Shown: positions 1 to 30,597, numbered from the stretch's first letter. The stretch is DNA of 32,000 nucleotides from Nitrosomonas europaea (GCF_900167395.1 NZ_FUWK01000021.1:1-32000); one strand, 5' to 3'. Made by a program: numbers and translations. The notes: generated by a model from the letters alone, not told the origin.

Positions 1-1630
1 ATCGGTCAACCCAGACAGATGACAGTGGTTCGTTTCCGAAAGATGCTCCCCAGTCTGGCTCCGGTAAATTCTTGAGTTCATCCAGTGAAAGGCTTGTGCC
101 AGATCGGGAAACAGGGCCGTTACCACGCACAAAGTAATCATAAAGAGTAGAAGAATAGCCAAGCGTCAATTTGTGGTCGACAGCAAAGGTTGAGAAGCGA
201 GTATCCAGGTAAATATATCCTCCATAATTTTCATGCTTTTCCCAGGGTGAGTTTGATATTCTGACGGGAATAAAGGTCCTGTCCACCTGCTGATTTAAAG
301 ATATTTGATTGACTCTCATCCGGGTATCCTGATAGAAAAAAGCACTTCTGAGCGTAAAATACTTACTGGGATCCCAGCGCAGGCTGGTATAGGCTTTATG
401 GCTTTCTATATCATTAGAAGTCCATTTGGGAGAGTAGCGTTTACTGGTATCGATAGAGATTCTTTCCGTCATATAATAAAATGGTTGTATCGCCTCTTTG
501 CTGTAATCGTTATAGGTATATTTGATATCCACATAGAGGGTATCGGTAAGGTGGCCATCCAGCACAATGTTGGCCACTTTCTGGTTGACTGGTTCACCGA
601 TAGCGGTATCTCCGCCCTGATAGAGCAGATTGGCCCGGTAACCGAAGCGGCCTCGTTCATCAAATTTTCCGCTGATATCAGCATGGCCATAAAACTGGGT
701 GCCGCCGTAATTACCGAATGTCAGCCTTCTGAGTGGAACATTGGTCGGGCTTTTGGTGACATAATTTATCGCCCCCCCTACTCTTCCACCGCCATAGAGA
801 AAACCTGAAGTTCCGCTGAGAATTTCAACCCGATCGATTTCGATTACTGACACAGCAGAACCATTTACGCCAGCCATAGGTATACCATCATAAATAGGAT
901 TAAGTGTTGGAAAACCCCGTATGGTGACATGAGGTGTACCAGTAAAATTTTGGATCATTGGTTCCTGAGTCAGGGGATTCATTTTGAAGATCTGCCCCAT
1001 ATTCTGAGCGTTGACATTCTCGATCAGGTCTGAAGGAACGATACTCATCGAATAGGGCGTATCACGCAAACTACGTTCTCCCCAAAGACCAATACCGCTG
1101 ATATTACTAACCCGATAACCTTCTTCTGCTGTGCCTTGTTTCAGTGAAGCTGTGCTGACTGTCAATGGTGGCAACGTTACCGGTCCACCCGCGGCTGCTA
1201 TCCGGTGCAATGAATAACCACCATTACCTGCCTCCACCAGTTCATAACCACTGCCGGCCAGCAAGCGTGAAAATCCTGCACGGACGGTGTAGCGGCCTTG
1301 CAATCCTTTTCTGCTCAGTCCCGACAGCATTTGTGGATCGAAGGATAGCGGCACACCAGATGCAGCGGCGAATTGCGCCAGTGCATCGCCGAGCTGGCTG
1401 GCAGGAATGGCATAGTCCCGTTGAGCTGTGTTATCGAGGGCTTCAGCAGCCATGACAGAATTCGGTATGACTACTGCACCAGTGAGACTGGCCAGGATGC
1501 AAGTGATCATAAATGCAAGTGCATTGGTTTTGAGAATCGATAGGATGGTGCGGCAGAAATGAATGAGGGAAGAGAATGCAAACCCTGCAGTGCAGGCTGA
1601 TTGCCCGAGGTGGAAACGCCTGAAGACCAT
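1..1630 (-). CDS. TonB-dependent siderophore receptor/transducer with N-terminal STN signalling domain (paralog 1). The C-terminal end runs off the window start.
   Basis: Absent from the ORF track because no stop codon lies in the window. Hand translation of the minus strand from ATG 1630..1628 stays open to base 1 in one frame. It gives MVFRRFHLGQ...LTGAVVIPNSVMA/AEA (signal-like), then the STN-like DYAIPASQLGDALAQFAAASGVPLSFDP...GGYSLHR. The plug and barrel are then colinear with the 820-aa receptor at 6193..8655 (GIGLWGERSLRDTPYSMSIVPSDLIEN, WEKHENYGGYIYLDTRFSTFAVDHKLTLGYSS). Confidence 0.85.
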   Translation of the reverse strand, partial: MVFRRFHLGQSACTAGFAFSSLIHFCRTILSILKTNALAFMITCILASLTGAVVIPNSVMAAEALDNTAQRDYAIPASQLGDALAQFAAASGVPLSFDPQMLSGLSRKGLQGRYTVRAGFSRLLAGSGYELVEAGNGGYSLHRIAAAGGPVTLPPLTVSTASLKQGTAEEGYRVSNISGIGLWGERSLRDTPYSMSIVPSDLIENVNAQNMGQIFKMNPLTQEPMIQNFTGTPHVTIRGFPTLNPIYDGIPMAGVNGSAVSVIEIDRVEILSGTSGFLYGGGRVGGAINYVTKSPTNVPLRRLTFGNYGGTQFYGHADISGKFDERGRFGYRANLLYQGGDTAIGEPVNQKVANIVLDGHLTDTLYVDIKYTYNDYSKEAIQPFYYMTERISIDTSKRYSPKWTSNDIESHKAYTSLRWDPSKYFTLRSAFFYQDTRMRVNQISLNQQVDRTFIPVRISNSPWEKHENYGGYIYLDTRFSTFAVDHKLTLGYSSTLYDYFVRGNGPVSRSGTSLSLDELKNLPEPDWGASFGNEPLSSVWVDR

Positions 1631-1775
1631 AATTCGTGACCCTTTCGTTAGTGTTGATCAAGTAGTTGAAGCGCGTTCAAAACACGCTTTCACCTGATAC
1701 ACCGGATGAACACGAAAAAGGTATCAGCCGAATCGCAGATTTTTTGCGGTTGAAGTATATGCGGCCTGTATCCCC

Positions 1776-2207
1776 TTATTTGAGGTATGAGGTACTCCAG
1801 GGATTAACCAGATCGATCCCGCAATCGACAAAATCCTTGAGGTTACGTGTAGCCAGGCTGGCACCCTTGGATTTAGCCATAGCAGCAATCATGGCATCGA
1901 ACTGACTGATCGGCTTACCGACGGCCTTACGGGATGCTGCAATTTTGGCGTAGGTATCGGCAGCCGTGCTATCGAAATTCAGAACATGTCCGGCCAGATC
2001 TTGATCGAAAATGCTCTGAATGGCATCCAGCAGAGCTGTCTGACGTTGGCCATCAGGTAGTAGACGCACACCGTAGAACAGTTCAGCTCGTGTAACCGTA
2101 GTAGTGAATAGCACTGACCGTGGCTGGGCCGCCAGCCATACCAGTACCTGTGTATCTGGTACAGGGCGCAAAATCTCGGAAAGTACATTGGTATCCAGAA
2201 CGATCAT
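1776..2207 (-). CDS. vapC: PIN-domain toxin, VapC/FitB family
   Basis: 143-aa ORF starting MIVLDTNVLSE (PIN acidic residue), with internal FDAMIAAMA and TRNLKDF motifs typical of VapC. It overlaps the upstream antitoxin gene by 4 nt (ATGA). Confidence 0.9.
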   Translation of the reverse strand: MIVLDTNVLSEILRPVPDTQVLVWLAAQPRSVLFTTTVTRAELFYGVRLLPDGQRQTALLDAIQSIFDQDLAGHVLNFDSTAADTYAKIAASRKAVGKPISQFDAMIAAMAKSKGASLATRNLKDFVDCGIDLVNPWSTSYLK

Positions 2208-2452
2208 GCTCCCGGCTCCAAAGGATCACGAATAGCTTCCCGTTCAGGCAGATTCAGCTCGATCCCGCCCAATGGCTCTATACGTGAACGAATTACTTCC
2301 ACCAGCGAGACAGTCTGCACTGGTTCAGCAGATAACGCTGTACGCAAAATATCCTGTACTTCATCTTCCATGGAACGTCCATGCATAGCAGCACGCACAC
2401 GCAGCCGGGCCTTGAGTTGCTCATCGATGTTGCGAATAGTCATAGTCGCCAT
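2204..2452 (-). CDS. vapB: Ribbon-helix-helix (Arc/FitA-type) VapB antitoxin
   Basis: 82-aa ORF MATMTIRNIDEQLKARLRVRAAMHGRSMEDEVQDILRTAL, typical of FitA/Arc-type antitoxins. AGGAG lies upstream of the ATG (plus-strand ctcct at 2459..2463). It is translationally coupled to vapC. Confidence 0.8.
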   Translation of the reverse strand: MATMTIRNIDEQLKARLRVRAAMHGRSMEDEVQDILRTALSAEPVQTVSLVEVIRSRIEPLGGIELNLPEREAIRDPLEPGA

Positions 2453-2513
2453 ATCAATCTCCTGTTAATCAATGGCTTGACGGTCATTAGCTGGTGTTAA
2501 AACAACCAACCAT

Positions 2514-2530
2514 TGTACATGCATCGTACA
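2514..2530. promoter_or_regulatory. Candidate operator palindrome in the vapBC promoter region
   Basis: TGTAC-ATGCATC-GTACA dyad about 60 nt upstream of the vapB start, in the divergent spacer between the two antitoxin genes. Confidence 0.3.
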
Positions 2531-2558
2531 TCAGAAATCCTTGTCTGCTTTCCGGGAA

Positions 2559-2585
2559 ATCAACGAACCCGCACCGTAATTCACC
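2559..2585 (-). pseudogene. Short remnant of a fecR 3' terminus (last about 8 codons plus stop)
   Basis: atcaacgaacccgcaccgtaattcacc matches atcaacgagcctgcaccgtaatccacc at the end of the intact fecR (4409..4435) at 24/27 positions by hand, in the same orientation. The stop codon lies at 2560..2562. Confidence 0.45.
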
Positions 2586-2656
2586 TGAAGATAATGCGAT
2601 TACCGCACGCCACCAGTCAGGAGATCCGGAGCGAATGAATTCATCATCGGCACATT

Positions 2657-2674
2657 TGTAGTAACATAACTACA
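2657..2674. promoter_or_regulatory. Candidate operator for the Phd-type antitoxin
   Basis: Perfect inverted repeat TGTAGT-AACATA-ACTACA, 24 nt upstream of the ATG at 2698. Confidence 0.4.
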
Positions 2675-2697
2675 TTAACTGTTTGTGGAGGTATGCC

Positions 2698-2955
2698 ATG
2701 GCTATTACAACGCTTTCCAGCCGGGAACTCAATCAGGATATCGGACGGGCCAAGCGCGCTGCCCGCAACGGCCCGGTCATCATCACCGACCGGGGTAAGC
2801 CCGTGCATGTGCTGCTGTCTTACGACGAGTACCAGCGCATCATCGGCCAGCAGGAAAACATCGTCGATCAGCTCGGCCTGCCATCGGGCATCGAAGATGT
2901 GGAAGTGGAGTTCCCCCGCTCGCGCGAACTGGCACGGCCTGCGGACTTCACCTGA
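2698..2955 (+). CDS. Phd/YefM-type antitoxin, partner of a PIN toxin
   Basis: MAITTLSSRELNQDIGRAKRAARNGPVIITDRGKPVHVLLSYDEYQRI is a typical Phd/YefM N-terminal domain. GGAGG at 2687..2691 lies 6 nt before ATG 2698; the track start at 2683 is a TTG and less likely. The stop overlaps the ATG of the downstream vapC (TGATG). Confidence 0.85.
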   Translation: MAITTLSSRELNQDIGRAKRAARNGPVIITDRGKPVHVLLSYDEYQRIIGQQENIVDQLGLPSGIEDVEVEFPRSRELARPADFT

Positions 2956-3404
2956 TGCTCCTGCTCGATACCAACGTCATTTCTGAGCTGCTCAAAGTCC
3001 GTGCTGGAAAGGCCGATCCGCACGTGACAACATGGGGCCGGACAGTGCCCGGTGCGAGTCTCTACGTTTCGGTCATCACCGTGCAGGAATTGGAGATCGG
3101 TACCTTGTAGGTCGAACGCCGTGACCCGGCCCAAGGCATTTTGCTTCGCACCTGGCTGGAGGAACATGTACTGTCGAGCTTCGCTGATCGAATCTTGCCG
3201 GTCGATACAGTCGTAGCACGCCGCAGCGCCGCGCTCCACGTACCCAACCCGCGCCCATACCGGGACAGCCTGATCGCCGCCACCGCGCTGGTATATGGCA
3301 TGACTCTGATTACTCGCAACGTAGCTGATTTCGAACCGATGGGTGTCACATTGCTCAACCCATGGACGCCATGCTGGCCGCGAATCAGCGGGCTTGTACC
3401 GTAA
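2955..3404 (+). pseudogene. vapC: vapC PIN-domain toxin gene interrupted by an in-frame TAG
   Basis: From ATG 2955 the frame reads MLLLDTNVISELLKVRAGKADPHVTTWGRTVPGASLYVSVITVQELEIGTL, then TAG at 3108..3110. It continues in the same frame as VERRDPAQGILLRTWLEEHVLSSFADRILPVDTVVARRSAALHVPNPRPYRDSLIAATALVYGMTLITRNVADFEPMGVTLLNPW. Only the distal part appears in the track (3141..3404). Confidence 0.8.
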
Positions 3405-3622
3405 TCCACCGGGAAATGGTACGACTGATGTGTATCGGCAAGGTCGTTTCCAGCAAACTCAGGCTGGCGGGTATGTCAGTCACCGGGAAAGCACCGGAGA
3501 CGGCCAGACTGGCAACAGAAGGATCGCAACGCAGAACACCACGGTAATAGCGGTTCAGTTCGGCGATCAGCTCACCGAGATGCATATCACGAGCCAGCAG
3601 CATGCCATGCTCCCACAGCGTA
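3378..3622 (-). pseudogene. Duplicated 3' fragment of fecR (C-terminal about 72 codons plus stop)
   Basis: Track ORF 3385..3603 (MLLARDMHLGELIAELNRYYRGVLRCDPSVASLAVSGAFPVTDIPASLSLLETTLPIHISRTISRWITVQAR) is colinear with the C-terminus of the intact FecR at 4410..5378. Nucleotide homology runs from about 3378 to 3622 against about 4404 to 4648. There is no N-terminal part. Confidence 0.85.
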
Positions 3623-3633
3623 GTGTCTTAGAT

Positions 3634-3963
3634 TTAGTACGCTAATTGTTCCAGGGTGATACCCATCGCCGCCGCGGCTTTCTCAAGCGTTGCCTTGCGC
3701 GGACGCTTGGCAGCCTCAATCTGTGCATAGCCTGCTTGCGTGATCTCCATGCGTTTAGCCATTTCTTCCTGGGTCAGCATCAGGTATTCACGCCAGGCTT
3801 GCAGCATACTCATTCCATTGATAGCTTTACTGACGACAGCGTGTGGCGCACCATCTTTAGGCACGTATACTTGGGAATGCACAAAATCAGCGTAGGGAAT
3901 AACGACAAAGGCAGGCCGTCCATCTACATCATTGATAGTTTGATAGTTAGTAAGTGGTCTCAT
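3634..3963 (-). CDS. HTH (XRE-type) antitoxin, in a HigA-like position downstream of its toxin
   Basis: MRPLTNYQTINDVDGRPAFVVIPYADF..., followed by a helix-turn-helix segment LTQEEMAKRMEITQAGYAQIEAAKRPRKATLEKAAAAMGITLEQL. The ATG at 3963 overlaps the 3' end of the toxin gene; the longer track ORF start (4017) lies inside the toxin gene. Confidence 0.75.
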   Translation of the reverse strand: MRPLTNYQTINDVDGRPAFVVIPYADFVHSQVYVPKDGAPHAVVSKAINGMSMLQAWREYLMLTQEEMAKRMEITQAGYAQIEAAKRPRKATLEKAAAAMGITLEQLAY

Positions 3964-4204
3964 CGCGCTTTTTAACTTCCTGAATATTAATGATATGGAT
4001 TTCTCCATCGAAATCAAAGAAAACTCTATAGTCCCCCGCTCGCAAACGGTAGGGATACCGGTGATTTGTCAGTTTCTTGATACTGTTACAATCAGGAAAT
4101 ACTGACAATTTTTCTTCAACAGTATCCCGGATAACTTGCGCCGTTTGCCTTGGCAATTTCAGCACCTGCTTAATCGCTTTTGTTTTCCAGATGATTCTGT
4201 TCAT
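3947..4204 (-). CDS. RelE/ParE-superfamily toxin, with toxin-first (HigB-like) gene order
   Basis: 85-aa ORF with YRLRAGDYRVFFDFDGEIHIINIQEVKKRDETTY, the characteristic RelE/ParE C-terminal core. It sits immediately upstream of an HTH antitoxin. Confidence 0.8.
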   Translation of the reverse strand: MNRIIWKTKAIKQVLKLPRQTAQVIRDTVEEKLSVFPDCNSIKKLTNHRYPYRLRAGDYRVFFDFDGEIHIINIQEVKKRDETTY

Positions 4205-4210
4205 CTGCTT

Positions 4211-4238
4211 ATTATAAGAATAATATAAGCAATATCAA
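4211..4238 (-). promoter_or_regulatory. Sigma70-like promoter of the relE/HTH module, nearly leaderless
   Basis: On the minus strand: TTGATA (4238..4233), a 16-nt spacer, TATAAT (4216..4211), then only 6 nt to ATG 4204. The surrounding TATAAG repeats may be operator half-sites. Confidence 0.45.
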
Positions 4239-4320
4239 TATAGATATAAGAATTGACCCGTTCCGAAAACTATGCCTTGGCGGTCTGCATTTGCCAGCTT
4301 TGCATGGCTAACCTCCAAAC

Positions 4321-4347
4321 TATAAAAGTCAGACTAGATAAGTCTGA
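4321..4347 (-). terminator. Rho-independent terminator candidate downstream of fecR (pair 1)
   Basis: Minus strand TCAGACT-TATCT-AGTCTGA (7-bp perfect stem, 4347..4329) followed by CTTTTATAGTTT. Confidence 0.5.
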
Positions 4348-4409
4348 GTTCTATCCAAGAGCGATGTCCATGTCCATACGGGCATGAATGCCGACCCCCA
4401 ACCAGCGGA

Positions 4410-5378
4410 TCAACGAGCCTGCACCGTAATCCACCAGGAAGTGGTGCTGCTGATGCGTATCGGCAGAGTCGTTTCCAGCAGCGCCAGACTGGCGGGTATG
4501 TCAGTCACCGGGAAAGCACCGGAGATGGCCAGACTGGCAACAGAGGGATCGCAACGCAGAACACCACGGTGATAGCGGTTCAGTTCGGCGATCAGCTCAC
4601 CGAGATGCATGTCACGAGCCAGCAGCATGCCATGCTCCCACAGCGTGGTACTGGCTTCCACGGGTCGTACGGGCTGCATGTCGAGTCCGGTAAAGGTCAT
4701 CTGCTCACCTGCACGCAGAACAGTTGTTTGAATGGATACAGCCGGATGAACTTCGACAGCCCCCTCAAGCACAGCGACCTGAGTGCGGTCATCGAAATGG
4801 CGCACGGTGAAGCGCGTACCCAGTGCGCGCAAGCTGCCATGAGCGGTCTGCACGATGAAGGGGCGCGATACAGGAGACGGATCACGCCCGGTAGTCACAA
4901 GGATCTCTCCAGCCAGTAATATAAGACGCCGTTCAGCAGTGGTAAAAGCGACATTCGCTGCACTGGTAGTATTGAGCACCAGATGCGTGCCATCATTCAG
5001 ATCGATGAGTTTCTGTTCACCGGTGGCGGTACGCAGATCAGCCACCCATTCCTGCCAGGGGCTGTGTCGCCAGGTGATCCAGGCAGCAGGCATGGCAAGT
5101 GCAAGTAAGCCCAGGCGCAACATCTGCCGACGGCCAGGATTGCCCAGATGCGAAAAGGTATCATGACCCAGTTTTGGTGGTACCTGATCAAAAGTGCTCA
5201 GCATATTTTCAGCACGTCGCCAGGCGGCTTCATGAGCAGGGTTGCGTTCACGCCAATGTGCCAGAGCCATCCGATCGCGCTCCGTCGCTTCGCCGGACTG
5301 GAGCAGTACCAGCCAATCGGCTGCTTCCAGCAGGATAGCTGGATCGATATCGGGCTCGGGGGAATGGAGCACTGTCAT
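4410..5378 (-). CDS. fecR: FecR-type anti-sigma factor / transmembrane sensor (pair 1)
   Basis: 322-aa ORF. The N-terminus has the anti-sigma motif AADWLVLLQSGEATERDRMALAHWRERNPAHEAAW, followed by one TM-like segment and a FecR/DUF4880-DUF4974-like periplasmic part. It starts 7 nt after the fecI stop. Confidence 0.9.
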   Translation of the reverse strand: MTVLHSPEPDIDPAILLEAADWLVLLQSGEATERDRMALAHWRERNPAHEAAWRRAENMLSTFDQVPPKLGHDTFSHLGNPGRRQMLRLGLLALAMPAAWITWRHSPWQEWVADLRTATGEQKLIDLNDGTHLVLNTTSAANVAFTTAERRLILLAGEILVTTGRDPSPVSRPFIVQTAHGSLRALGTRFTVRHFDDRTQVAVLEGAVEVHPAVSIQTTVLRAGEQMTFTGLDMQPVRPVEASTTLWEHGMLLARDMHLGELIAELNRYHRGVLRCDPSVASLAISGAFPVTDIPASLALLETTLPIRISSTTSWWITVQAR

Positions 5379-5385
5379 GAATGAA

Positions 5386-5916
5386 TCAATCCAGCATCAG
5401 GCAAGCGACAAAGGCTGTGCGCATGTGTCGCTTGATCGTAATGAGTGAAAAACCGGTTTGATCAGCGATCTGCCGGTAAGTCAGCCCGTCGAGCTGGGCC
5501 AGCAGGAAAATATCCCGTGTACGTACCGGCAAACCGCGCAACATGGTTTCGATGCGGCACAGCGCTTCCAGGATCAGCAGTCGTGTTTCAGGCGAAGGGA
5601 TTTCTGTCTCTGGCAGGTGGGCAAGTGCTTCCAGGTAAGCACGCTCTACATCCTGTCGCCGCCAGTGGTCGATGACCAGACCCTTGGCAATGTGCGTCAG
5701 CAACGCACGCGGTTCCTCACCCAAATGTACCGGCATCCTTTGTGAAGCCATGACACGCAGAAAAGTATCGTGCGCCAGATCGGCTGCATCACAGGCATTG
5801 CCGAGTTTGCAGCGCAGCCAGCCATACAACCAGCCGTGATGGTCGGTATACAGAACATGGATTCGGTGTGCTGCAAGGTCAGTGGCCGGCACAGCGCCCT
5901 CTTCGTCATCGGTCAT
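5386..5916 (-). CDS. fecI: FecI-type ECF sigma factor (pair 1)
   Basis: The ORF contains LYTDHHGWLYGWLRCKLGNACDAADLAHDTFLRV (region 2) and LDGLTYRQIADQTGFSLITIKRHM (region 4 HTH). The track start 5934 is a TTG. I prefer ATG 5916 (MTDDEE...) because it parallels MTIP/MTIQ in the two paralogs and lies 25 nt from the Fur-like dyad. ATG 5922 is also possible. Confidence 0.85.
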   Translation of the reverse strand: MTDDEEGAVPATDLAAHRIHVLYTDHHGWLYGWLRCKLGNACDAADLAHDTFLRVMASQRMPVHLGEEPRALLTHIAKGLVIDHWRRQDVERAYLEALAHLPETEIPSPETRLLILEALCRIETMLRGLPVRTRDIFLLAQLDGLTYRQIADQTGFSLITIKRHMRTAFVACLMLD

Positions 5917-5940
5917 GCACATGTGCGAACACAAAAATAA

Positions 5941-5959
5941 AATGAGAACGATTCTTATT
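5941..5959. promoter_or_regulatory. Fur-box-like dyad upstream of fecI (pair 1)
   Basis: AATGAGAA-CGA-TTCTTATT is an AT-rich dyad resembling the GATAATGA(T/G)AATCATTATC Fur consensus. A similar dyad stands before fecI pair 2. Confidence 0.45.
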
Positions 5960-6152
5960 TTATAAGGTAAGGTGCCCGACTTGCAAGACTGGTTTTATAT
6001 ATGACCAGACACCCAGTCAGGGCAGCAGACTCGCAAACTTTGCTGATCTGAGGGAACGAATACTGATAGCACAGACAATCGAGGAAATGTTTGATGCGTG
6101 AGTAGTTCGGGAAATGACAGGAGTTTCTGCCGGATTTTGCAGGAAGAAGTCC

Positions 6153-6176
6153 TCCGGGCTCTATTCTGAGCCCGGA
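6153..6176 (-). terminator. Conserved stem-loop just 3' of receptor paralog 2 (terminator candidate without a U-tract)
   Basis: TCCGGGCTC-tattct-GAGCCCGGA, a 9-bp perfect stem 17 nt after the stop. The same hairpin follows paralog 3 (30598..30621). Confidence 0.35.
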
Positions 6177-6192
6177 ATATCAAGCTAAAACG

Positions 6193-8655
6193 TTAAAACA
6201 TCGTACTGACAGAAAACGCAACAGTCCTCGGTACGCCTAAATAATTAGCATCTTGCCAGTAGTTTTTACCAGTCAGATTGATGACATTCAGACGTACTAT
6301 TAGTGACTTATCCAGTACACGAGTTGCATATCGTGCTCCGATATCATACAAGGTATAGCTGGGTATCTTGTCGGTATTGGCCGCATTGCCATATCTCTCG
6401 CTGGTATAGTAGATACCACCGGTCAAGCTCAATCCCGTAATCCAAGGCAGAGCATATTCCGCATAAATTTTGCCCATTCTGGAAGCAGCATTGACTGGTT
6501 TCTTTCCTTCCAGAGCAGGATCATTGGCTTTCTCTACGCTGATATCCATCAGGGTGCCGCCTCCCATGATAGTCAGATTGTCGGTTACTTTTCCGGTCAG
6601 GATCAATTCCACCCCGTTATGTACTTGCAAACCATCCTGAACGTAAGTGGGGATAGGCATAGCTTGATTTGAAAACTGATTGGCTTTCTCGATTCGGAAC
6701 AGCGCAGTACTCAATAATAAATTAGGATTGACATCGTATTTCAGACCCACTTCATATTGTTTACTGACGAGTGGTGGGAATACTTCCCCAAAATTAGTAT
6801 AGGTATTACCTACTCTCGTTCCTCTTTCAAGTGCTTCCATATAAGAGACATAGGTGGTGACATCTTTAATCGGTTTATACAGCACCGAGACGGAGGGGGT
6901 CAGCGCAGATTTTTCATATTTAATACCATCGCCATAAAAACCGGATGCTTTATTCATCGTAGTAGCATAGTTGAATCCGATCATCGCAGACCATTGATCA
7001 TTGAAAGTAATATCATCTCCAATCAAAACATTATTATATTGATCAATCCAGGGAGATGATACGGTTCCCTTTCCGAAAGATTCTCCCCAATCCGGCTCAG
7101 ATAAGTTTTTAACTTCATTTAACGAGAGGCTTGTACCAGACCGAAGAACAAAACCATTACCACGCAAAAAGTATTCATAATAAGTAGAGGAATAACCTAA
7201 GGTTAGTTTATGGTCGACAGCAAACGTTGAAAATCGCGTATCCAGGTAGATATAACCCCCATAATTTTCATGCTTTTCCCACGGGGCGTTTAACATTCTA
7301 GGAATAAAGGTCCTGTTCGCTTGCTCATTTAAATATATTTGGTTGGTTCTCATATTAGTATGTTGATAGAAGAAAGCACTTCTAAGGGTGAAATACTTAC
7401 TGGGATCCCAGCGCAGGCTGGTGTAAGCTTTGTGACTTTCCAAGTCATTAGATGCCCATTTGGGAGAATAGCGTTTACTGGTATCGACCCCAGTTCTTTC
7501 TATCACACTATTAAATGTTGGTTGTGTTGCTTCTTTGCTGTAGTCGTTATAGGTATATTTGACATCCGCGTAGAGGGTATCGGTAAGATGACCATCCAGC
7601 ACGATGTTGGCGACTTTCTGTTTTACGGGCTCACCTATAGCGGTATCTCCTCCTTGGTAGAGCAGATTGGCTCGATAACCGAAGCGGCCCCGATCATCGA
7701 ATTTTCCACTGATATCAGCATGGCCATAAAACTGAGTACCACCGTAGTTACCAAACGTCAGCCTTCTGAGCGGGACACTGGTTGGGCTTTTGGTCACGTA
7801 ATTTATTGCCCCGCCTACTCTGCCGCCACCATAGAGAAAGCCTGAGGTTCCACCGAGAATTTCGACTCGATCGATCTCGATGACGGATACGGCAGAGCCG
7901 TTCCCAAGAGCAAGAGGTATGCCATCATAGACCGGATTTGTTGATTGAAATCCGCGCATGACGACCATAGGTATACCGGTAAAATTCTGAATAGGTGGTT
8001 CCTGAGTCAAGGGATTCATTTTGAAGATCTGCCCCATATTCTGGGCATTGATGTTTTCAATCAAATCAGAAGGGACAATACTCATTGAATAGGGCGTATC
8101 TCGCAAGCTGCGTTCATCCCATAAGCCAATTCCGCTGACATTACTGACCAAATACCCCTCTTCTGCTGCGCCTTGTTTCAGGGAATCTGCTTTTACGGTC
8201 AGCGTGGGCAACACTGCTTTTCCATCAGTAGTCAGATTCCCGGTAGCCGGTACTTTATGCAAGGTATACCCTCCGCCCGGTTGCCTGATGACCTCTATAC
8301 TGTTACCGGCCAGCAGCAACATGAGTCCTGCTGAAATATCATGGCGGCCATTCAACCCTCTGGTCACTTTGTTGCTGATCAGTGCAGGATCATAGGTCAG
8401 ATTGACGCCTGCAGTACGGGCGAAGCGATCCAGTGCGCTATCCAGCGGGCCAGCAGGAATATCAAACATTCTGGTATTGGTTTCAACTGGCCCGGCTGCG
8501 TTGTTCTGTGCCTGTGCAGGCTGTATAAAACAGATCCCACTCAACACAAGAAAACCCGGTATCACGCTGCAGAGTACTGCAGTACGCAACAACCGGATCA
8601 AACTGGAGATGGAGATAAAACAATGAGTGACGATACAAGGATGAAAGATAGTCAT
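6193..8655 (-). CDS. TonB-dependent siderophore receptor/transducer with STN signalling domain (paralog 2)
   Basis: 820-aa ORF. It has a signal-like N-terminus ending QPAQA/QNN and the STN-like MFDIPAGPLDSALDRFARTAGVNLTYDP...GGYTLHK. A plug follows (RVEILGGTSGFLYGGGRVGGAINYVTK), then a long beta-barrel ending in the aromatic terminal F (VAFSVSTMF). Confidence 0.95.
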   Translation of the reverse strand: MTIFHPCIVTHCFISISSLIRLLRTAVLCSVIPGFLVLSGICFIQPAQAQNNAAGPVETNTRMFDIPAGPLDSALDRFARTAGVNLTYDPALISNKVTRGLNGRHDISAGLMLLLAGNSIEVIRQPGGGYTLHKVPATGNLTTDGKAVLPTLTVKADSLKQGAAEEGYLVSNVSGIGLWDERSLRDTPYSMSIVPSDLIENINAQNMGQIFKMNPLTQEPPIQNFTGIPMVVMRGFQSTNPVYDGIPLALGNGSAVSVIEIDRVEILGGTSGFLYGGGRVGGAINYVTKSPTSVPLRRLTFGNYGGTQFYGHADISGKFDDRGRFGYRANLLYQGGDTAIGEPVKQKVANIVLDGHLTDTLYADVKYTYNDYSKEATQPTFNSVIERTGVDTSKRYSPKWASNDLESHKAYTSLRWDPSKYFTLRSAFFYQHTNMRTNQIYLNEQANRTFIPRMLNAPWEKHENYGGYIYLDTRFSTFAVDHKLTLGYSSTYYEYFLRGNGFVLRSGTSLSLNEVKNLSEPDWGESFGKGTVSSPWIDQYNNVLIGDDITFNDQWSAMIGFNYATTMNKASGFYGDGIKYEKSALTPSVSVLYKPIKDVTTYVSYMEALERGTRVGNTYTNFGEVFPPLVSKQYEVGLKYDVNPNLLLSTALFRIEKANQFSNQAMPIPTYVQDGLQVHNGVELILTGKVTDNLTIMGGGTLMDISVEKANDPALEGKKPVNAASRMGKIYAEYALPWITGLSLTGGIYYTSERYGNAANTDKIPSYTLYDIGARYATRVLDKSLIVRLNVINLTGKNYWQDANYLGVPRTVAFSVSTMF

Positions 8656-8714
8656 ATTATTTTCGGTCAGATAGGTTAATGATCAACAAACAAGGCTCCC
8701 ACCTGATAGGTCGA

Positions 8715-8737
8715 TCGAGAATCGAAATCCCCTCACC
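8715..8737 (-). promoter_or_regulatory. Candidate ECF (FecI-type) promoter, GGTGA-N14-TCGA
   Basis: On the minus strand: GGTGA (8737..8733), a 14-nt T-rich spacer, TCGA (8718..8715), 60 nt before ATG 8655. The same GTGA-N14-TCGA arrangement lies 52-53 nt before two other STN-type receptor genes. Confidence 0.3.
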
Positions 8738-8802
8738 TTTTCCGAAAAATTTTTCTGACGCTTCTCCTGTTTTTATTCAACGAATAAATTTACGAACCAT
8801 TT

Positions 8803-8944
8803 AGGAACCTCTGCAAAACTATCTGCATTGCCATTTCTGCGTTAAAAGTCGGCTCAGAATACTCATTTATTACGTATAAACTCCGCTTCTTCGCCGACTT
8901 TTGCCTTGAACTGACTGCCTCGCTAACGTTTTTCAGAGGTTCCC
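8803..8944. mobile_element. About 140-bp MITE-like non-coding element, copy A
   Basis: Terminal inverted repeats: left end (T)TAGGAACCTCTGCAAAAC, right end GTTTTTCAGAGGTTCCCTTA. There is no ORF. It is about 85-90% identical by eye to 10356..10497, in the same orientation. Confidence 0.6.
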
Positions 8945-8951
8945 TTACTTA

Positions 8952-8999
8952 TCGCCAGGACAGCGATGCAGTTCGTACCTCACCGTATCCTGTTGCACT
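8952..8999. repeat. 48-bp hairpin-containing repeat, copy A
   Basis: tcgccaggacagcgatgcagttcgtacctcaccgtatcctgttgcact is near-identical to 10872..10919 (direct repeat, 1920 bp apart). The core also recurs inverted at 30393..30419. Confidence 0.65.
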
Positions 9000-9021
9000 A
9001 TAAAACGGAAAAAATCGTATG

Positions 9022-9293
9022 CTAAGGCTGCACTGAGGCAGGAATCCAGCGATAAAGCGTAGGAATGGACACGCCAAAGTTCTTGGCCACGTCCCTGGGC
9101 GGAACGCCGTTGGCCAGCAGCTTCATTGTCGACTCGATCTTACTGTCGGTCATCTTGGGTTTGCGGCCTCCCCTGCGACGTGCCACTCACCTTGTCCTCG
9201 AAGATCTTTTTACATCCGGCCCTGGTCAAGGCTTCGCGTTGCAGCTCCAGGTTCTGATCTTGCGTCGAGATTCACGTATAAGCCAATCAACAT
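9022..9293 (-). pseudogene. Decayed serine recombinase (resolvase/invertase): N-terminal stub fused to the C-terminal HTH
   Basis: The minus strand reads ATG TTG ATT GGC T-TAT ACG TGA ATC TCG ACG CAA GAT CAG, that is MLIG(Y)T*ISTQDQNLELQREALTRAGCKKIFEDKVSGTSQG. This carries the resolvase catalytic-Ser motif, with a 1-nt insertion and a TGA. The frame then switches to GGRKPKMTDSKIESTMKLLANGVPPRDVAKNFGVSIPTLYRWIPASVQP*, a Hin/resolvase-type HTH. The central catalytic domain is missing. Confidence 0.75.
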
Positions 9294-9664
9294 GGCTTGT
9301 CTCTTGCTTCATTGTCGGCGTCCTGGCGCACGGCGGGCAATTGCTTGAGCAACTCCGGCAGTGCTGCCTGCACGGTGTCCCACACCACATCGAGGTTGAT
9401 GTCGAAGTAGCCGTGGGCGATGCGGTTGCGCATGCCGCGCATATTGCGCCACGGCACTTGAGCATGTGCCTGGGCAAACTCGGCATAGCCATCCATCACC
9501 TTCGTGACGGCTTCGCCGATGATGATGAGGCTCATGATGACGGCCTGCTGAGTTTGCTTGTTCTCAAGGAAATCCTCTTTGGCCAGGCCCTCTACGAAGC
9601 TGCACGCGTCGGTTGCGGCCTGCTGTATGTGGTCGAGGTAATCGAGCAGGCGGCTTTCGCTCAT
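9287..9664 (-). CDS. hepT: HEPN-domain (DUF86) toxin HepT
   Basis: 125-aa ORF with the R-x4-H HEPN motif (MRNRIAHGYF). It overlaps the upstream nucleotidyltransferase gene by 4 nt. Confidence 0.9.
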   Translation of the reverse strand: MSESRLLDYLDHIQQAATDACSFVEGLAKEDFLENKQTQQAVIMSLIIIGEAVTKVMDGYAEFAQAHAQVPWRNMRGMRNRIAHGYFDINLDVVWDTVQAALPELLKQLPAVRQDADNEARDKPC

Positions 9665-9957
9665 ATCGGTCGCGCCTCCGCGAGTACCTTGGCCCGGAAC
9701 TTTGGCGGCAGGTCGCCGGGCGTCAGCAAATCAACGTGGAGGCCGAGCAGTGATTCCAGCTCGACTTGCAGACCACCCAGATCGAACAGTGTCGCACCAG
9801 GCAGCGCATCGACCAGCAGATCGAGGTCGCTGCCATCGTGGTCGGTGCCATGCAGCACCGAACCAAAGACACGCGGGTTCGTGGTGCGGAAGCGGCCTAC
9901 CGCTTCACGCACTGCGCTTCGTTTCATGTCAAGCACAACAGACGGTCTCATGGGCAT
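9661..9957 (-). CDS. mntA: Minimal nucleotidyltransferase antitoxin MntA
   Basis: 98-aa ORF with FGSVLHGTDHDGSDLDLLVD (the GS-x-D-x-D NTase motif). It pairs with the DUF86 gene. The region is visibly GC-rich compared with its surroundings. Confidence 0.9.
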   Translation of the reverse strand: MPMRPSVVLDMKRSAVREAVGRFRTTNPRVFGSVLHGTDHDGSDLDLLVDALPGATLFDLGGLQVELESLLGLHVDLLTPGDLPPKFRAKVLAEARPI

Positions 9958-10036
9958 CCTTTTTTATCAAAACTCGTTGAGATGGTATGCAATCAAGAAT
10001 AGAGCTTCAAGAACTATTTTCGAGAATCACAATACC

Positions 10037-10354
10037 TTAATATCCGTGAAATAAAAAATCGAGTGCACTGGTAATCTCGGGTTGCATATCTCGTAACGAC
10101 AGCACGGGCATTGTAAGTAGTCGCCGGGGGATAGCCCCCATTTTTGGAGTTTCCAGCAGAAAATCCTGGCCTTTGATCGTTACAACCGGAGTCAGCCTGC
10201 CGGGTAATTTAACTTTGGGGAAGTGCTCAAGGCTGCGCAATGGAATGACCATGCAGCTATCCAGCACATCAAGCAGATCGCTCTGGACATCCAGCAGATA
10301 AGGTGTCGTAGCGGCGTGACTACCCGGGTTAACATAAACATCGAAACGTGCCAC
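10037..10354 (-). CDS. ccdB: CcdB-family gyrase-poison toxin
   Basis: 105-aa ORF (M)ARFDVYVNPGSHAATTPYLLDVQSDLLDVLDSCMVIPL...ALDFLFHGY, colinear with CcdB. It has a GTG start at 10354, with GGAGG (plus-strand cctcc 10362..10366) 7 nt upstream. That GGAGG lies inside the MITE-like element. Confidence 0.85.
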   Translation of the reverse strand: MARFDVYVNPGSHAATTPYLLDVQSDLLDVLDSCMVIPLRSLEHFPKVKLPGRLTPVVTIKGQDFLLETPKMGAIPRRLLTMPVLSLRDMQPEITSALDFLFHGY

Positions 10355-10355
10355 A

Positions 10356-10497
10356 AGGGAGCCTCCAGAAAACTACCTGCGTTGTCATTTCTGCGTCAAA
10401 AATCGGCTCAAAATGCTCATTTATTACGTATAAACTCCGCTTTCTTGCCGATTTTTGCCTTGAACTGATTGCCTCGCTAATATTTTTTAGAGGTTCC
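10356..10497. mobile_element. About 140-bp MITE-like element, copy B, inserted between ccdA and ccdB
   Basis: Homologous along its full length to 8803..8944. It fills exactly the gap between the ccdA stop (10498..10500) and the ccdB start (10354). Confidence 0.65.
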
Positions 10498-10761
10498 TTA
10501 GAAACTTCTCCACTCGTCCAGTGGCAGATTCTCAGCTTCGATAGTGGCATTGTAGGCAGTAATAAAATCCGCATGTTCCTCACGCCAGCGGCGCTCTTGC
10601 TCATGACGCACCACTTCACGCAGGTAAGTATCGCAGACCTGAGAAATATTGATATCCAGTTGCCTGGCAGCGTCCAGTACATCAGCACTCAAGCTCAGAT
10701 TGATTGCACGTTTGCCAGGTCGGCCAGATTGGGTACGACGGACAGACTGTATCGTTGGCAT
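10498..10761 (-). CDS. ccdA: CcdA-family antitoxin
   Basis: MPTIQSVRRTQSGRPGKRAINLSLSADVLDAARQLDINISQVCDTYLREVVRHEQERRWREEHADFITAYNATIEAENLPLDEWRSF resembles CcdA (NIS...RRxxxxxW...). GGAGA lies 5 nt before ATG 10761. The longer track start (10779) lies within the operator-like palindrome. Confidence 0.8.
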   Translation of the reverse strand: MPTIQSVRRTQSGRPGKRAINLSLSADVLDAARQLDINISQVCDTYLREVVRHEQERRWREEHADFITAYNATIEAENLPLDEWRSF

Positions 10762-10771
10762 TGATGTCTCC

Positions 10772-10793
10772 ATGCGCATAATAATATGTGCAT
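10772..10793. promoter_or_regulatory. Candidate CcdA operator palindrome
   Basis: ATGCGCATAATAATATGTGCAT is a near-perfect 22-bp palindrome (2 mismatched pairs) directly upstream of the ccdA RBS. Confidence 0.4.
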
Positions 10794-10871
10794 AGCCTAA
10801 CCCGTATTATTCATTGTGTCCATGGTTTGCAACAAAACGATCAAGCCACTGGATTGCTTCAGCGTACCATT

Positions 10872-10919
10872 TCGCAAGGACAGCGATGCAGTTCGTACCT
10901 CACCGTATCCTAACGCACT
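10872..10919. repeat. 48-bp hairpin-containing repeat, copy B
   Basis: tcgcaaggacagcgatgcagttcgtacctcaccgtatcctaacgcact is a direct repeat of 8952..8999. It lies 11 nt downstream of the fecR (pair 2) stop. Confidence 0.65.
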
Positions 10920-10929
10920 CCTATCTCTG

Positions 10930-11973: not shown

Positions 11974-11977
11974 CCGG

Positions 11978-17163: not shown

Positions 17164-17322
17164 TCAGTGAAGCCTCGGTAACGATAAAATAAATCCGGGA
17201 TTATCGATGCCATCGAATGATTTCATCGATATCGTAAAGCGATTTCTGCTGCTGTCTTCGCACACCGCACAAGCAATACGAGCGGACAGCAATCCGATAC
17301 TGCTGCAGCAAGCCAGCAGTTT

Positions 17323-17667: not shown

Positions 17668-17668
17668 T

Positions 17669-21440: not shown

Positions 21441-21499
21441 CTCTGACCAAGCCCTCCATGAGCCACATTACAGGCAAAATCATGATGATCGCAAGAAGC
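21441..21499. repeat. 59-bp intergenic repeat, copy X1
   Basis: ctctgaccaagccctccatgagccacattacaggcaaaatcatgatgatcgcaagaagc is about 85% identical by hand to 30330..30387, in the same orientation. Both copies lie downstream of a receptor gene. Confidence 0.6.
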
Positions 21500-24084: not shown

Positions 24085-24135
24085 ATTGTTTTCTCGATAT
24101 TGGAATGTAAATAGCCCTCCTATCTACATTGCCCC

Positions 24136-26740: not shown

Positions 26741-26792
26741 GGACTTTTTCCTTCAATTTCCGGTTATAGAGAGTTTTCATCTCTATTGCCAG

Positions 26793-30583: not shown

Positions 30584-30597
30584 AGCGGTTAGGGTTC

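What the first reader, a model, noticed from the sequence alone, without database searches (positions are those of the whole stretch)
1..8655. Mosaic receptor paralogs: plug and barrel nearly identical, STN signalling domain divergent
Receptors 1..1630 and 6193..8655 are about 90% identical at the protein level over a roughly 200-residue plug and barrel stretch (20 differences by hand). The third paralog, 30638..>32000, joins them where visible. Nucleotide homology starts abruptly at about 1145 and about 8185 (..ccttgtttcag..). Upstream of that point the STN signalling domains are only about 40% identical (30/72 by hand: DYAIPASQLGDALAQFAAASGVPLSF... versus MFDIPAGPLDSALDRFARTAGVNLTY...). The adjacent FecI proteins are also clearly different. 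This looks like domain-level shuffling or gene conversion limited to the transport module. The same, or a very similar, ferric-siderophore channel would then be wired through different signalling domains to different FecR/FecI pairs. The paralog homology also continues about 40 nt beyond the stop, including a conserved hairpin.
Basis: partly seen in the sequence, partly recalled or inferred. Interest (0 to 1): 0.65.

Follow-up and report, generated by a model that had tools for sequence, protein, structure and literature searches.

The report
Swappable barrels on private iron-signalling lines
In this Nitrosomonas iron-uptake island, siderophore receptor genes share one recombining pore module (plug plus barrel) fused at a fixed joint to unrelated signalling domains, each with its own sigma/anti-sigma pair, so receptor evolution here is modular and the module swaps appear to be continuing.

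Summary
R1 (1..1630) and R2 (6193..8655) are 85% identical in plug and barrel (180/200 in the best stretch) but 36-42% identical upstream. The step lies at window 1152 / 8189 (chi-square 174; best of 300 permutations 16), just after the putative TonB box, in the predicted disordered linker.

The window is Nitrosomonas. The pattern holds for the whole family. I found at least 14 signalling-domain (STN) types on one barrel family. STN and barrel distances are uncorrelated (Mantel r = -0.04).

FecI, FecR and STN travel together as a cassette. A Thauera-like locus has FecI 79%, FecR 65% and STN 64% identical to the R1 unit, but a barrel only 26-28% identical.

Orthologous units have young STNs and old barrels (dS 0.31 against 1.28). 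Two N. europaea-type sequences of one locus differ by a clean replacement of 1,867 nt of plug and barrel between identical flanks.

Within barrels, recombination is significant and variation is concentrated in the plug apex and extracellular loops.

"Same channel" needs qualifying, because R1 and R2 differ at a third of loop residues. fecI/fecR at 4410..5934 serve R1, not R2. I rate it a new variant of known kinds, of moderate to high interest.

The parts
1..1151 (-). R1 plug and N-terminal part of the barrel (family module). The gene runs off the window start, which is at or near the contig end.
   Evidence: Pfam Plug hit. 80.5% nt identity to R2. Breakpoint at 1152.
1..460 (-). Tract in R1 that is nearly identical to a receptor carrying a different (type 6) STN, from another sample (L024). 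It includes an exact 334-nt run at window 1..328.
   Evidence: Mismatches per 100 nt fall from 11-25 to 4, 1, 0, 0, 0. Caveat: this is at the contig end.
1157..1174 (-). R1 putative TonB box (LPPLTV) in the STN-plug linker. This is the left edge of family homology.
   Evidence: Family alignments. Breakpoint test.
1202..1423 (-). R1 signalling domain (STN type 1).
   Evidence: Pfam STN hit. 42% identical to the R2 STN. 89% identical to the PE_soil1 orthologue and 64% to the Thauera-like receptor.
1776..4204 (.). Toxin-antitoxin genes and a fecR 3' remnant lying between fecR1 and R1. They are FitA/PIN 2452..1776, Phd 2683..2955 with a frameshifted PIN to 3404 (+ strand), the fecR remnant 3380..3624, and ParE/HTH 4204..3634.
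   Evidence: Pfam hits. Gene calls. The remnant is 90.6% identical to 4405..4649. PE_soil1 lacks most of this insert.
4410..5378 (-). fecR1, the anti-sigma/sigma regulator of the R1 unit.
   Evidence: Pfam FecR and DUF4880 hits. 90% identical to the PE_soil1 orthologue found upstream of the R1 orthologue. 65% identical to the Thauera-like FecR.
5386..5934 (-). fecI1, the ECF sigma factor of the R1 unit.
   Evidence: Pfam and NCBIfam hits. 79% identical to the Thauera-like FecI but only 48% to FecI2.
6152..6177 (-). Conserved hairpin 3' of R2 (10-bp stem, 6-nt loop, no U-run).
6196..8188 (-). R2 plug and 22-strand barrel (family module). The hypervariable patches are at aa 222-254, 376-401, 433-461, 492-540, 566-579, 610-629 and 801-806.
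   Evidence: Pfam hits. AF2 model, pLDDT 81. Foldseek matches FemA and BauA with TM 0.84-0.90. Entropy map.
6905..7302 (-). Tract in R2 that is 97-99% identical to a type-5-STN receptor of Nitrosomonas PRO5 (L019). It spans loops L4-L6.
   Evidence: 1-3 mismatches per 100 nt here, against 10-18 elsewhere. Background orthologous identity between the lineages is 92-95%.
8194..8211 (-). R2 putative TonB box (LPTLTV) in the predicted disordered linker (aa 137-167).
8254..8475 (-). R2 signalling domain (STN type 0).
   Evidence: AF2 fold, pLDDT 82-91. Match to the PupB N-terminal signalling domain 6ovk, E = 1.5e-12. No Pfam STN match at the default E-value threshold of 0.001.
9287..10773 (-). CcdA/CcdB and MNT/HepT toxin-antitoxin modules inserted between fecR2 and R2.
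   Evidence: Gene calls with Pfam domains. Flanking repeats 8804-8943 ~ 10358-10497 and 8952-8999 ~ 10872-10919.
10930..12024 (-). fecR2, the regulator of the R2 unit.
   Evidence: Pfam hit. 70% identical to the PRO54 orthologue found upstream of a type-0 receptor.
11978..12496 (-). fecI2, the ECF sigma factor of the R2 unit.
   Evidence: Pfam hit. 82% identical to the PRO54 orthologue.
30597..30622 (-). Conserved hairpin 3' of R3.
30638..32000 (-). R3 barrel, C-terminal 453 aa. The full gene in a near-identical strain carries a type-3 STN and has its own fecI/fecR.

Best explanation
R1, R2 and R3 belong to a family of FemA/BauA-like TonB-dependent transducers that in these searches was found only in Nitrosomonas. 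Each gene is a two-part mosaic.

The 5' part is the signal peptide and STN signalling domain. It is inherited together with the upstream fecI and fecR as one orthologous signalling cassette. There are at least 14 such cassettes. They are as different from one another as they are from the cassettes of unrelated receptors.

The 3' part is the plug, the barrel and about 45 nt of 3' flank including a hairpin. It is a shared module that homologous recombination moves and reshuffles among family members. This may happen between paralogous loci in one genome, between strains, or both.

The left edge of the shared module is fixed at the putative TonB box in the disordered STN-plug linker. Family homology simply begins there.

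Inside the module a nearly invariant scaffold (dN/dS 0.03-0.07) alternates with hypervariable plug-apex and extracellular-loop patches. The conserved scaffold segments probably serve as crossover sites (inferred), so loop alleles assort semi-independently.

Inferred function: each unit is a self-contained loop in which ligand at the barrel signals through STN to FecR and FecI, which switch on that unit's own receptor gene. Any barrel placed on any cassette would then still give a working inducible unit. This is what the laboratory PupBA chimera showed. Swaps are therefore tolerated, and they let a bacterium that makes no siderophore of its own diversify a repertoire of separately wired receptors for foreign siderophores.

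Shown here: the mosaic structure, the cassette co-inheritance, the discordant histories, the discrete replacement event and the loop-focused variation. Inferred: ligand differences, autoregulation and the selective rationale.
For: - Step at window 1152 / 8189 with chi-square 174, against a maximum of 16 in permutations.
- The family alignment of 75 homologues shows the same joint in every member and at least 14 STN types. Barrel identity is 0.81 between types and 0.81 within types.
- Mantel r between STN and barrel distances is -0.04. Between the two barrel halves it is 0.535.
- dS values: R1/R2 STN about 2.0 against barrel 0.94. Orthologues R1/PE_L005b have STN 0.31 (fecR1 0.28) against plug 1.28. 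Type-5 orthologues have 0.38 against 0.82. Non-orthologous pairs have barrel dS of only 0.42.
- A complete N. europaea chromosome holds one family member (P0036). A second member, P0048, compared from a metagenome contig but recorded on N. europaea genome-length contigs, shows the same contrast with it.
- FecI, FecR and STN co-vary across units. They are no closer within the family than to cassettes of other receptors.
- A full HMMER scan with STN1 finds 13 full-length receptors with STN 54-65% identical and barrels only 21-29% identical to the family barrel.
- The Thauera-like locus has FecI 79%, FecR 65% and STN 64% identical to the R1 unit, with a barrel 26-28% identical.
- The same N. europaea locus in two assemblies has 0 differences in the first 327 nt, then 373/1867 differences, then an identical final 71 nt and 3' flank.
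- Near-identity tracts occur between receptors with different STN types.
- PHI test on barrels: observed 0.550 against 0.596 +/- 0.004 in permutations, 0/1000 reaching it.
- Correlation between loop patches decays with distance.
- Variation maps to the plug apex and loops L3-L7 and L11.
- The PupBA chimera retains transport and signals through the foreign STN (Braun et al. 2022, PMC9249621).
- STN contacts the C-terminal STN-like domain of the anti-sigma factor (PMC11637429).
- N. europaea gives 4% of its genes to iron acquisition and makes no siderophore (PMC3050691).
Against: - Most comparison loci are MAG or metagenome contigs. Paralogues with shared conserved segments can be assembled as chimeras. 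The R1 exact tract lies at a contig end.
- Barrels within one genome are not more alike than barrels from different genomes (0.74-0.83 against 0.75-0.90 nt). This is therefore not classical homogenising concerted evolution. Intragenomic conversion and inter-strain transfer cannot be told apart with the data I have.
- R1 and R2 themselves show no recent exchange.
- The protein database is clustered at 90% identity, which removes close orthologues and could understate the orthology signal in barrels.
- No ligand, induction or expression data exist for any family member.
- Loop dN/dS is 0.27-0.40, so positive selection is not demonstrated.
Confidence: 0.8

Rival explanations
1. No recombination. 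Whole fecI-fecR-receptor units duplicated, then the barrel stayed similar under strong purifying selection while STN, FecR and FecI diverged quickly to insulate the signalling lines.
For: The scaffold dN/dS is very low (0.03-0.07) and barrel dS between most pairs is about 0.9-1.1. Much of the 85-90% protein identity therefore reflects constraint on an old divergence.
Against: Synonymous sites also differ: the STN is saturated while the barrel dS is 0.94. Orthologues have younger STNs than barrels, and non-orthologues have barrel dS 0.42. Mantel r is -0.04. The FecI1/FecR1/STN1 cassette is 64-79% identical to a Thauera-like cassette on a barrel only 26% identical. A clean strain-level barrel replacement exists.
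Confidence: 0.04
2. Classical concerted evolution. Frequent intragenomic gene conversion homogenises the barrels of paralogues within each genome, and the STN is excluded because it lacks homology.
For: Near-identical tracts occur between receptors with different STN types. The PHI test is significant. Nitrosomonas is known for near-identical multicopy amo and hao genes (PMC6053082).
Against: Barrels within one genome are not more similar than barrels from different genomes. Window pairs are 0.74-0.81 nt, PE_soil1 pairs 0.77-0.83, and cross-genome pairs reach 0.90. Diversity is maintained and reshuffled, not erased. The Thauera result shows that at least one true module swap happened.
Confidence: 0.12
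3. Assembly artefact. Short-read assemblers joined paralogous receptor genes at their conserved segments, producing apparent mosaics.
For: The window and most loci come from MAGs or metagenomes. The window contig ends inside R1 within a repeat tract.
Against: The STN/barrel discordance is also seen with N. europaea: one member (P0036) lies on a complete chromosome, and a second (P0048) is recorded on N. europaea genome-length contigs. It also recurs in many independent assemblies with the joint at the same codon positions. The P0039 contig was recovered in separate samples, and no barrel more than 88% identical to it appears among the family members retrieved. The Thauera-like comparison does not depend on any Nitrosomonas paralogue.
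Confidence: 0.04

Closest known systems
FecA / PupB / FoxA / FpvA-type TonB-dependent transducers with FecI-FecR cell-surface signalling
   Same: The domain order is STN, putative TonB box, plug, then a 22-strand barrel. An ECF sigma factor and a FecR-type regulator are encoded upstream. The fold matches FemA, BauA and FoxA.
   Different: At least 14 different signalling cassettes share one barrel family that is 72-97% identical. TA modules often separate fecR from the receptor gene. No ligand is known.
Laboratory PupBA / PupAB chimeras (Koster et al. 1994, as reviewed in PMC9249621)
   Same: A heterologous barrel joined to a foreign STN at the N-terminal extension keeps the barrel's substrate specificity. 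In PupBA it also signals through the STN's own pathway. That is the architecture seen here.
   Different: Those chimeras were engineered. Here the chimeras are natural and recurrent, they share a fixed joint, and they are found across a genus.
Gene conversion and mosaicism among bacterial outer-membrane protein paralogues, such as Helicobacter pylori babA/babB/sabA, Neisseria opa and pilE/pilS, and Treponema tpr (from my own knowledge; outer-membrane genes as typical short-term concerted-evolution cases are noted in PMC6053082)
   Same: Ectopic homologous recombination between dispersed paralogues. Conserved segments flank variable surface-exposed segments. Mosaic alleles result.
   Different: The organism is a free-living chemolithoautotroph, not a host-associated pathogen. 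The recombining module stops exactly at a domain linker, so a regulatory (signalling) identity is kept while the transport module changes.
Diversifying selection and recombination at the Pseudomonas aeruginosa pyoverdine receptor locus, fpvA types I-III (from my own knowledge, not checked here)
   Same: Siderophore receptor alleles that diverge in ligand-contacting regions and are exchanged by recombination.
   Different: That case concerns alleles of one locus tied to a cognate siderophore synthesis cluster. Here many paralogous loci per genome are involved, there is no siderophore synthesis, and the signalling cassettes differ.

Membership tests
TonB-dependent transducer (cell-surface signalling receptor) | Plug domain inside a 22-strand beta-barrel | tested here: met
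   Pfam Plug and TonB_dep_Rec_b-barrel hits. TIGR01783 scores above its cut-off for R2. The AF2 model has 22 strands. Foldseek gives TM 0.84-0.90 to BauA and FemA.
TonB-dependent transducer (cell-surface signalling receptor) | N-terminal signalling (STN) domain ahead of the plug | tested here: met
   R1 has a Pfam STN hit of 29.2 bits against a cut-off of 28.4. R2 has no Pfam match at the default threshold but matches the PupB signalling domain 6ovk at E = 1.5e-12. It is modelled as an STN fold with pLDDT 82-91.
TonB-dependent transducer (cell-surface signalling receptor) | TonB box between STN and plug | tested here: inconclusive
   An LPxxTV motif is conserved across the family in the disordered linker. 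TonB binding was not tested.
TonB-dependent transducer (cell-surface signalling receptor) | Cognate ECF sigma factor (FecI) and FecR-type regulator encoded next to the receptor | tested here: met
   fecI1/fecR1 and fecI2/fecR2 lie upstream of R1 and R2 on the same strand. The linkage is conserved in PE_soil1 and PRO54. TA inserts of 1.9-2.8 kb separate fecR from the receptor gene.
TonB-dependent transducer (cell-surface signalling receptor) | Ligand-dependent induction through STN, FecR and FecI | not testable with these tools
   Needs reporter or expression experiments.
Domain shuffling (module swap) between signalling cassette and transport module | The cassette has closer relatives attached to unrelated transport modules than to its own module family | tested here: met
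   STN1 is 54-65% identical to the STNs of receptors whose barrels are 21-29% identical to the family barrel. The Thauera-like unit has FecI 79%, FecR 65%, STN 64% and barrel 26-28% identity. Other family STNs are only 31-48% identical.
Domain shuffling (module swap) between signalling cassette and transport module | The joint lies in an interdomain linker and is shared by all members | tested here: met
Classical concerted evolution of paralogues | Paralogues within a genome are more alike than orthologues between genomes | tested here: not met
   Within-genome barrel identity is 0.74-0.83 nt, against 0.75-0.90 between genomes. Orthology is erased but barrels are not homogenised.
Ectopic recombination / gene conversion among paralogues | Statistical evidence of recombination and sharply bounded near-identity tracts | tested here: met
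   PHI test 0/1000. Tracts. A discrete 1,867-nt replacement. Decay of correlation between loop patches.

The most novel reading that the evidence does not exclude
The family may act as a recombination-driven diversification system for receptor surfaces. In this reading the nearly invariant scaffold segments between hypervariable plug-apex and loop patches are kept partly because they serve as crossover sites, much as framework regions do in pilE/pilS-type systems. New combinations of ligand-contacting loops would be generated continually and tested on at least 14 insulated, self-inducing signalling lines. A bacterium that makes no siderophore could then track the changing siderophores of its neighbours, or escape phages and bacteriocins that use these receptors.
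Probability: 0.25. Interest if true: 0.8.

Novelty: new variant of a known kind. Interest (0 to 1): 0.62.

Why it matters
Cell-surface signalling receptors are usually treated as fixed triads of receptor, anti-sigma factor and sigma factor. Here the triad splits naturally into two evolutionary units. One is a signalling cassette (FecI, FecR, STN). The other is an exchangeable transport module (plug, barrel, 3' hairpin). The two meet at a precise joint.

This matters in three ways.
- It is natural, genus-wide evidence for the modularity that until now rested on engineered chimeras.
- It explains how Nitrosomonas, a key nitrifier in wastewater and soil that depends on other organisms' siderophores, can hold and renew a large receptor repertoire.
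- It offers a ready-made set of orthogonal STN/FecR/FecI lines on a common scaffold. That set could be used to study signalling specificity or to build sensors.

It is also a practical warning. Orthology calls and substrate predictions for these receptors, based on whole-protein similarity, will be wrong in both directions.

Tried and rejected
- The genome-contig scan with R2 relies on exact peptide patterns. It returned only 7 Nitrosomonas loci and missed the N. europaea reference genome, so I could not make a full per-genome census.
- The word-index search with the 96-aa STN1 gave only 4 fragments. I replaced it with the full HMMER scan.
- The N. europaea genome paper (Chain et al. 2003) is not held in the library. 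I therefore cannot say whether it already remarked on the near-identical receptor C-terminal parts.
- Six literature searches found no description of STN/barrel mosaicism or barrel exchange in TonB-dependent transducers.
- The terminator scan found no canonical intrinsic terminator at the conserved 3' hairpin.
- I considered and rejected three readings. Uniform divergence with fast STN evolution fails on dS and on the Thauera cassette. Pure homogenising conversion fails because within-genome barrels are not more alike. Assembly chimeras fail as a general explanation because the pattern recurs in many independent assemblies and involves a locus on a complete N. europaea chromosome.
- GC3 of the family barrels (0.43-0.45) is lower than that of neighbouring genes (about 0.58), which hints at a foreign origin. 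Other receptor genes in the window are also lowish (0.47-0.54), so I did not lean on this.

Full report
**What the window is.** All relevant genes lie on the minus strand of a Nitrosomonas iron-uptake island. The R2 protein occurs on contig DNPV01000048.1 of the NCBI MAG GCA_003501205.1.

Reading right to left, the order is:
- R3 (>32000..30638)
- a PaaA2/ParE-like TA pair
- three unrelated TonB-dependent receptors (29059..21583)
- fecI3-fecR3
- PepSY_TM/DUF3325
- a MacA-MacB-OEP exporter
- fecI2 (12496..11978) and fecR2 (12024..10930)
- CcdAB and MNT/HepT TA modules
- R2 (8655..6193)
- fecI1 (5934..5386) and fecR1 (5378..4410)
- three TA modules and a fecR 3' remnant
- R1 (1630..<1)

The fecI/fecR pair beside R2 therefore serves R1, and R2's own pair lies further upstream. 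Synteny confirms this. In Nitrosomonas PE_soil1, orthologues of fecI1 (86%) and fecR1 (90%) precede the R1 orthologue. In Nitrosomonas PRO54, orthologues of fecI2 (82%) and fecR2 (70%) precede a receptor with the R2-type STN.

**Checking the observation.** Self-blastn gives three matches:
- 6..1175 ~ 7043..8212 at 80.5%
- 6149..7555 ~ 30594..32000 at 79.4%
- 3..518 ~ 31482..32000 at 74%

A maximum chi-square scan of the codon alignment places the R1/R2 breakpoint at window 1152 / 8189. Its chi-square is 173.9, against a maximum of 16.0 in 300 permutations. Nucleotide identity is 0.475 to the left and 0.812 to the right. Protein identity is 36% to the left and 85% (322/381) to the right.

The STN domains are 42% identical (34/81). 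That is no closer than either is to the STNs of the unrelated receptors in the window (38-44%). FecR1/FecR2 (36%) and FecI1/FecI2 (48%) are likewise no closer than either is to fecI3/fecR3.

R2/R3 homology continues 44 nt beyond the stop codon. It includes a 10-bp hairpin, UCCGGGCUC-N6-GAGCCCGGA, which recurs after many family genes. The hairpin has no U-run and is not scored as an intrinsic terminator.

**It is a family-wide architecture.** R2 has about 75 homologues at 61-84% identity in Nitrosomonas-labelled or unlabelled records. The next relatives, in Aliarcobacter and Acinetobacter, are only 42-51% identical.

In the family alignment every member switches from unalignable to near-identical sequence at the same place. 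That place is a conserved LPxxTV motif (the putative TonB box) followed by LKQGTAEEGYRVSN.

Single-linkage clustering at 60% gives at least 14 STN types. R2 is type 0, R1 is type 1 and R3 is type 3. Mean STN identity between types is 0.33. Plug and barrel identity is the same between types (0.81, range 0.72-0.97) as within types (0.81, range 0.73-0.94). The nearest barrel neighbour shares the STN type in only 8 of 48 cases.

The Mantel correlation between STN and barrel distances is -0.04. The two barrel halves correlate at 0.535.

Several pairs have 99-100% identical STNs but barrels only 81-88% identical. Other pairs have barrels 93-97% identical but STNs only 19-37% identical.

**History, not just selection.** Nei-Gojobori estimates are:

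| Pair | STN | Plug/barrel |
|---|---|---|
| R1/R2 | dS about 2.0 (saturated), dN 0.64 | dS 0.94, dN 0.095 |
| R1 vs its PE_soil1 orthologue | dS 0.31 | plug dS 1.28 |
| Type-5 orthologues (PRO5 vs PE_soil1) | dS 0.38 | dS 0.82 |
| R2 vs PRO5 type 5 (non-orthologous) | saturated | dS 0.42 |
| R1 vs type 6 (L024) and type 10 (L021) | saturated | dS 0.42 and 0.47 |

The STN dS of 0.31 for R1 and its orthologue agrees with fecR1 (0.28) and fecI1 (0.54).

P0036 lies on a complete N. europaea chromosome (CM135170.1, 2.81 Mb). P0048 was compared from a 122.5-kb JGI metagenome contig, and records it on 2.81-Mb N. europaea contigs as well. The two loci have different flanking genes and each has its own fecI/fecR. 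The same contrast appears there: fecI, fecR and STN are saturated while barrel dS is 1.1 and dN is 0.14. The mosaic is therefore not peculiar to MAG assemblies.

**The signalling cassette is a unit with its own ancestry.** Across nine family units, FecI, FecR and STN identities rise and fall together. Orthologues score 0.82-0.86, 0.70-0.90 and 0.67-0.89 respectively. Non-orthologues score 0.23-0.59, 0.25-0.41 and 0.31-0.48. Family cassettes are no closer to each other than to cassettes serving other receptor families.

A full HMMER scan of 1.84 billion representative proteins with R1's STN found 13 full-length receptors whose STN is 54-65% identical to R1's. Their barrels are only 21-29% identical to the family barrel. 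The best full-length hit clusters with Thauera butanivorans proteins.

At that locus FecI is 79%, FecR 65% and STN 64% identical to the R1 unit. The plug and barrel are 26-28% identical. FecI1-FecR1-STN1 is therefore a cassette that elsewhere drives an unrelated transporter. At least one true swap at the STN/plug joint lies in R1's ancestry.

Many different cassettes in Nitrosomonas carry the one barrel family. The simplest reading is that this barrel module spread onto pre-existing cassettes. This direction is an inference.

**Exchange looks recent and perhaps ongoing.** The cleanest event concerns one N. europaea locus, compared between the complete genome (L025, P0036) and independent metagenome contigs (L031/L032, P0039). 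Along that locus:
- The flanks are about 98.5-100% identical.
- The first 327 nt of the gene have no differences. This covers the STN, the putative TonB box and LKQGTAEEGYRVSN.
- The next 1,867 nt differ at 373 positions (20%; 109/646 aa).
- The last 71 nt and at least 560 nt of 3' flank are again identical.

In the window, R2 (type 0) shares a tract at about 6905..7302 that is 97-99% identical to a type-5 receptor of Nitrosomonas PRO5. Identity is about 87% elsewhere in the barrel. Background orthologous identity between these lineages is 92-95%.

R1 is identical over its last 334 nt (window 328..1), and nearly identical from about 460, to a type-6 receptor from another sample. That tract lies at the contig end and should be treated with caution.

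A PHI test on nine full-length barrels is highly significant: 0.550 observed against 0.596 +/- 0.004 in permutations, 0/1000 reaching it.

Barrels within one genome are not more alike than barrels from different genomes. The process therefore reshuffles diversity and does not erase it. Whether donors are paralogues in the same cell or other strains is unresolved.

**Where the barrels differ.** An AlphaFold2 model of R2 has mean pLDDT 81.4. It shows an STN fold at residues 61-134, a disordered linker at 137-167 that contains the mosaic joint, then a plug and a 22-strand barrel. The model matches FemA (TM 0.89-0.90) and BauA (TM 0.84).

Family variation is concentrated in residues 222-254 (plug) and in 376-401, 433-461, 492-540, 566-579, 610-629 and 801-806. 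By strand order these are extracellular loops L3, L4, L5, L6, L7 and L11. This topology is inferred from the order of strands, not measured from coordinates.

R1 and R2 differ at 45/135 positions in these patches (dN/dS 0.29) but at only 13/236 scaffold positions (dN/dS 0.03). Loops L4-L6 average 43-51% identity across the family, nearly as variable as the STN at 37%. Distances between patches correlate only for neighbouring patches: L4-L5 0.50, L5-L6 0.34, distant pairs 0.03-0.2.

The ligand-facing surface differs between R1 and R2. In contrast, the R2/PRO5 and R1/type-6 tracts are cases where the same loop alleles sit on different signalling cassettes.

**Mechanism and function.** The following is inferred. 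The STN binds the C-terminal STN-like domain of its FecR-type partner (PMC11637429). Engineered PupBA receptors keep the barrel's substrate and signal through the grafted STN (PMC9249621).

Each unit here is probably a self-inducing loop. A barrel swap would leave a working unit whose inducer is simply the new barrel's ligand. That would make swaps nearly neutral or useful. It would also explain why orthology survives in fecI, fecR and STN but not in the barrel.

N. europaea makes no siderophore and gives about 4% of its genes to iron acquisition (PMC3050691). This fits a repertoire of receptors for foreign siderophores.

**Comparison with what is known.** The proteins meet the tested criteria for TonB-dependent transducers. 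The recombination resembles paralogue mosaicism in surface proteins of pathogens. It does not meet the classical definition of concerted evolution.

I found no description of this architecture in the searchable literature. The N. europaea genome paper could not be read, so prior mention of highly similar receptor genes cannot be excluded.

I rate it a new variant of known kinds, with interest 0.62.

Noticed in passing
window 1776..4204 and 9287..10773; L019 8129..9609; L029 3734..4395: Toxin-antitoxin modules sit between fecR and its receptor gene in several units. The window has FitA/PIN, Phd/PIN, ParE/HTH, CcdAB and MNT/HepT. PRO5 has MazE/PemK and Phd/PIN. The Thauera-like locus has Phd/PIN. 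PE_soil1 lacks most of the window's insert, so the modules accumulate at this spot.
   Followed up: partly
window 3380..3624 vs 4405..4649: A 245-bp copy (90.6% identical) of the fecR1 3' end brackets the ParE/HTH module. This region encodes the C-terminal STN-like domain of FecR. The copy still reads as a 72-aa ORF (3385..3603).
   Followed up: partly
window 8804..8948, 10356..10497; L019 5927..6071: An intergenic repeat of about 145 nt (83-92% identical) lies upstream of R2. It occurs again inside the TA insert, and again between divergent fecI genes in Nitrosomonas PRO5. It may be a promoter or operator element. It was not analysed.
   Followed up: no
window 21448..21499 vs 30336..30387: A 52-nt repeat (88% identical) occurs upstream of fecI3 and within or near the TA pair downstream of R3.
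   Followed up: no
window 12603..19627: A MacA-MacB-OEP exporter and a PepSY_TM/DUF3325 pair sit among the receptor units. These are the usual partners of siderophore export, recycling and reduction, yet the organism is reported to make no siderophore.
   Followed up: no
window 6193..8655 and 30638..32000 vs neighbours: The family barrels have GC3 of 0.43-0.45, against about 0.58 in fecI/fecR and the exporter genes. The nearest relatives outside Nitrosomonas are in low-GC Aliarcobacter and Acinetobacter (42-51% aa). This hints that the barrel module was acquired horizontally.
   Followed up: partly
window 6193..12496 vs L021 and L005: At the syntenic position after the OEP gene and before fecI1, the window has a type-0 unit (fecI2/fecR2/R2). 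PE_soil1 has a type-10 receptor immediately upstream of its fecI1 orthologue. The organism behind L021 has a type-10 unit after its OEP gene (its contig ends before any fecI1). Whole signalling units are thus also replaced at a fixed chromosomal site.
   Followed up: partly
window 2955..3404 (+); L006 about 1624-1628; L007 about 1983-2288: Frameshifted genes are present. In the window the PIN toxin next to Phd is split into two ORFs. In PE_soil1, tblastn matches to two family receptor genes are split across reading frames, so they are probably pseudogenes or sequencing errors.
   Followed up: no
window 1..221: The held copy of the NCBI contig (45,695 bp) ends at about window 222. A 46,224-bp version carries the longer R1 fragment. 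The assembly breaks inside the repeated barrel.
   Followed up: partly
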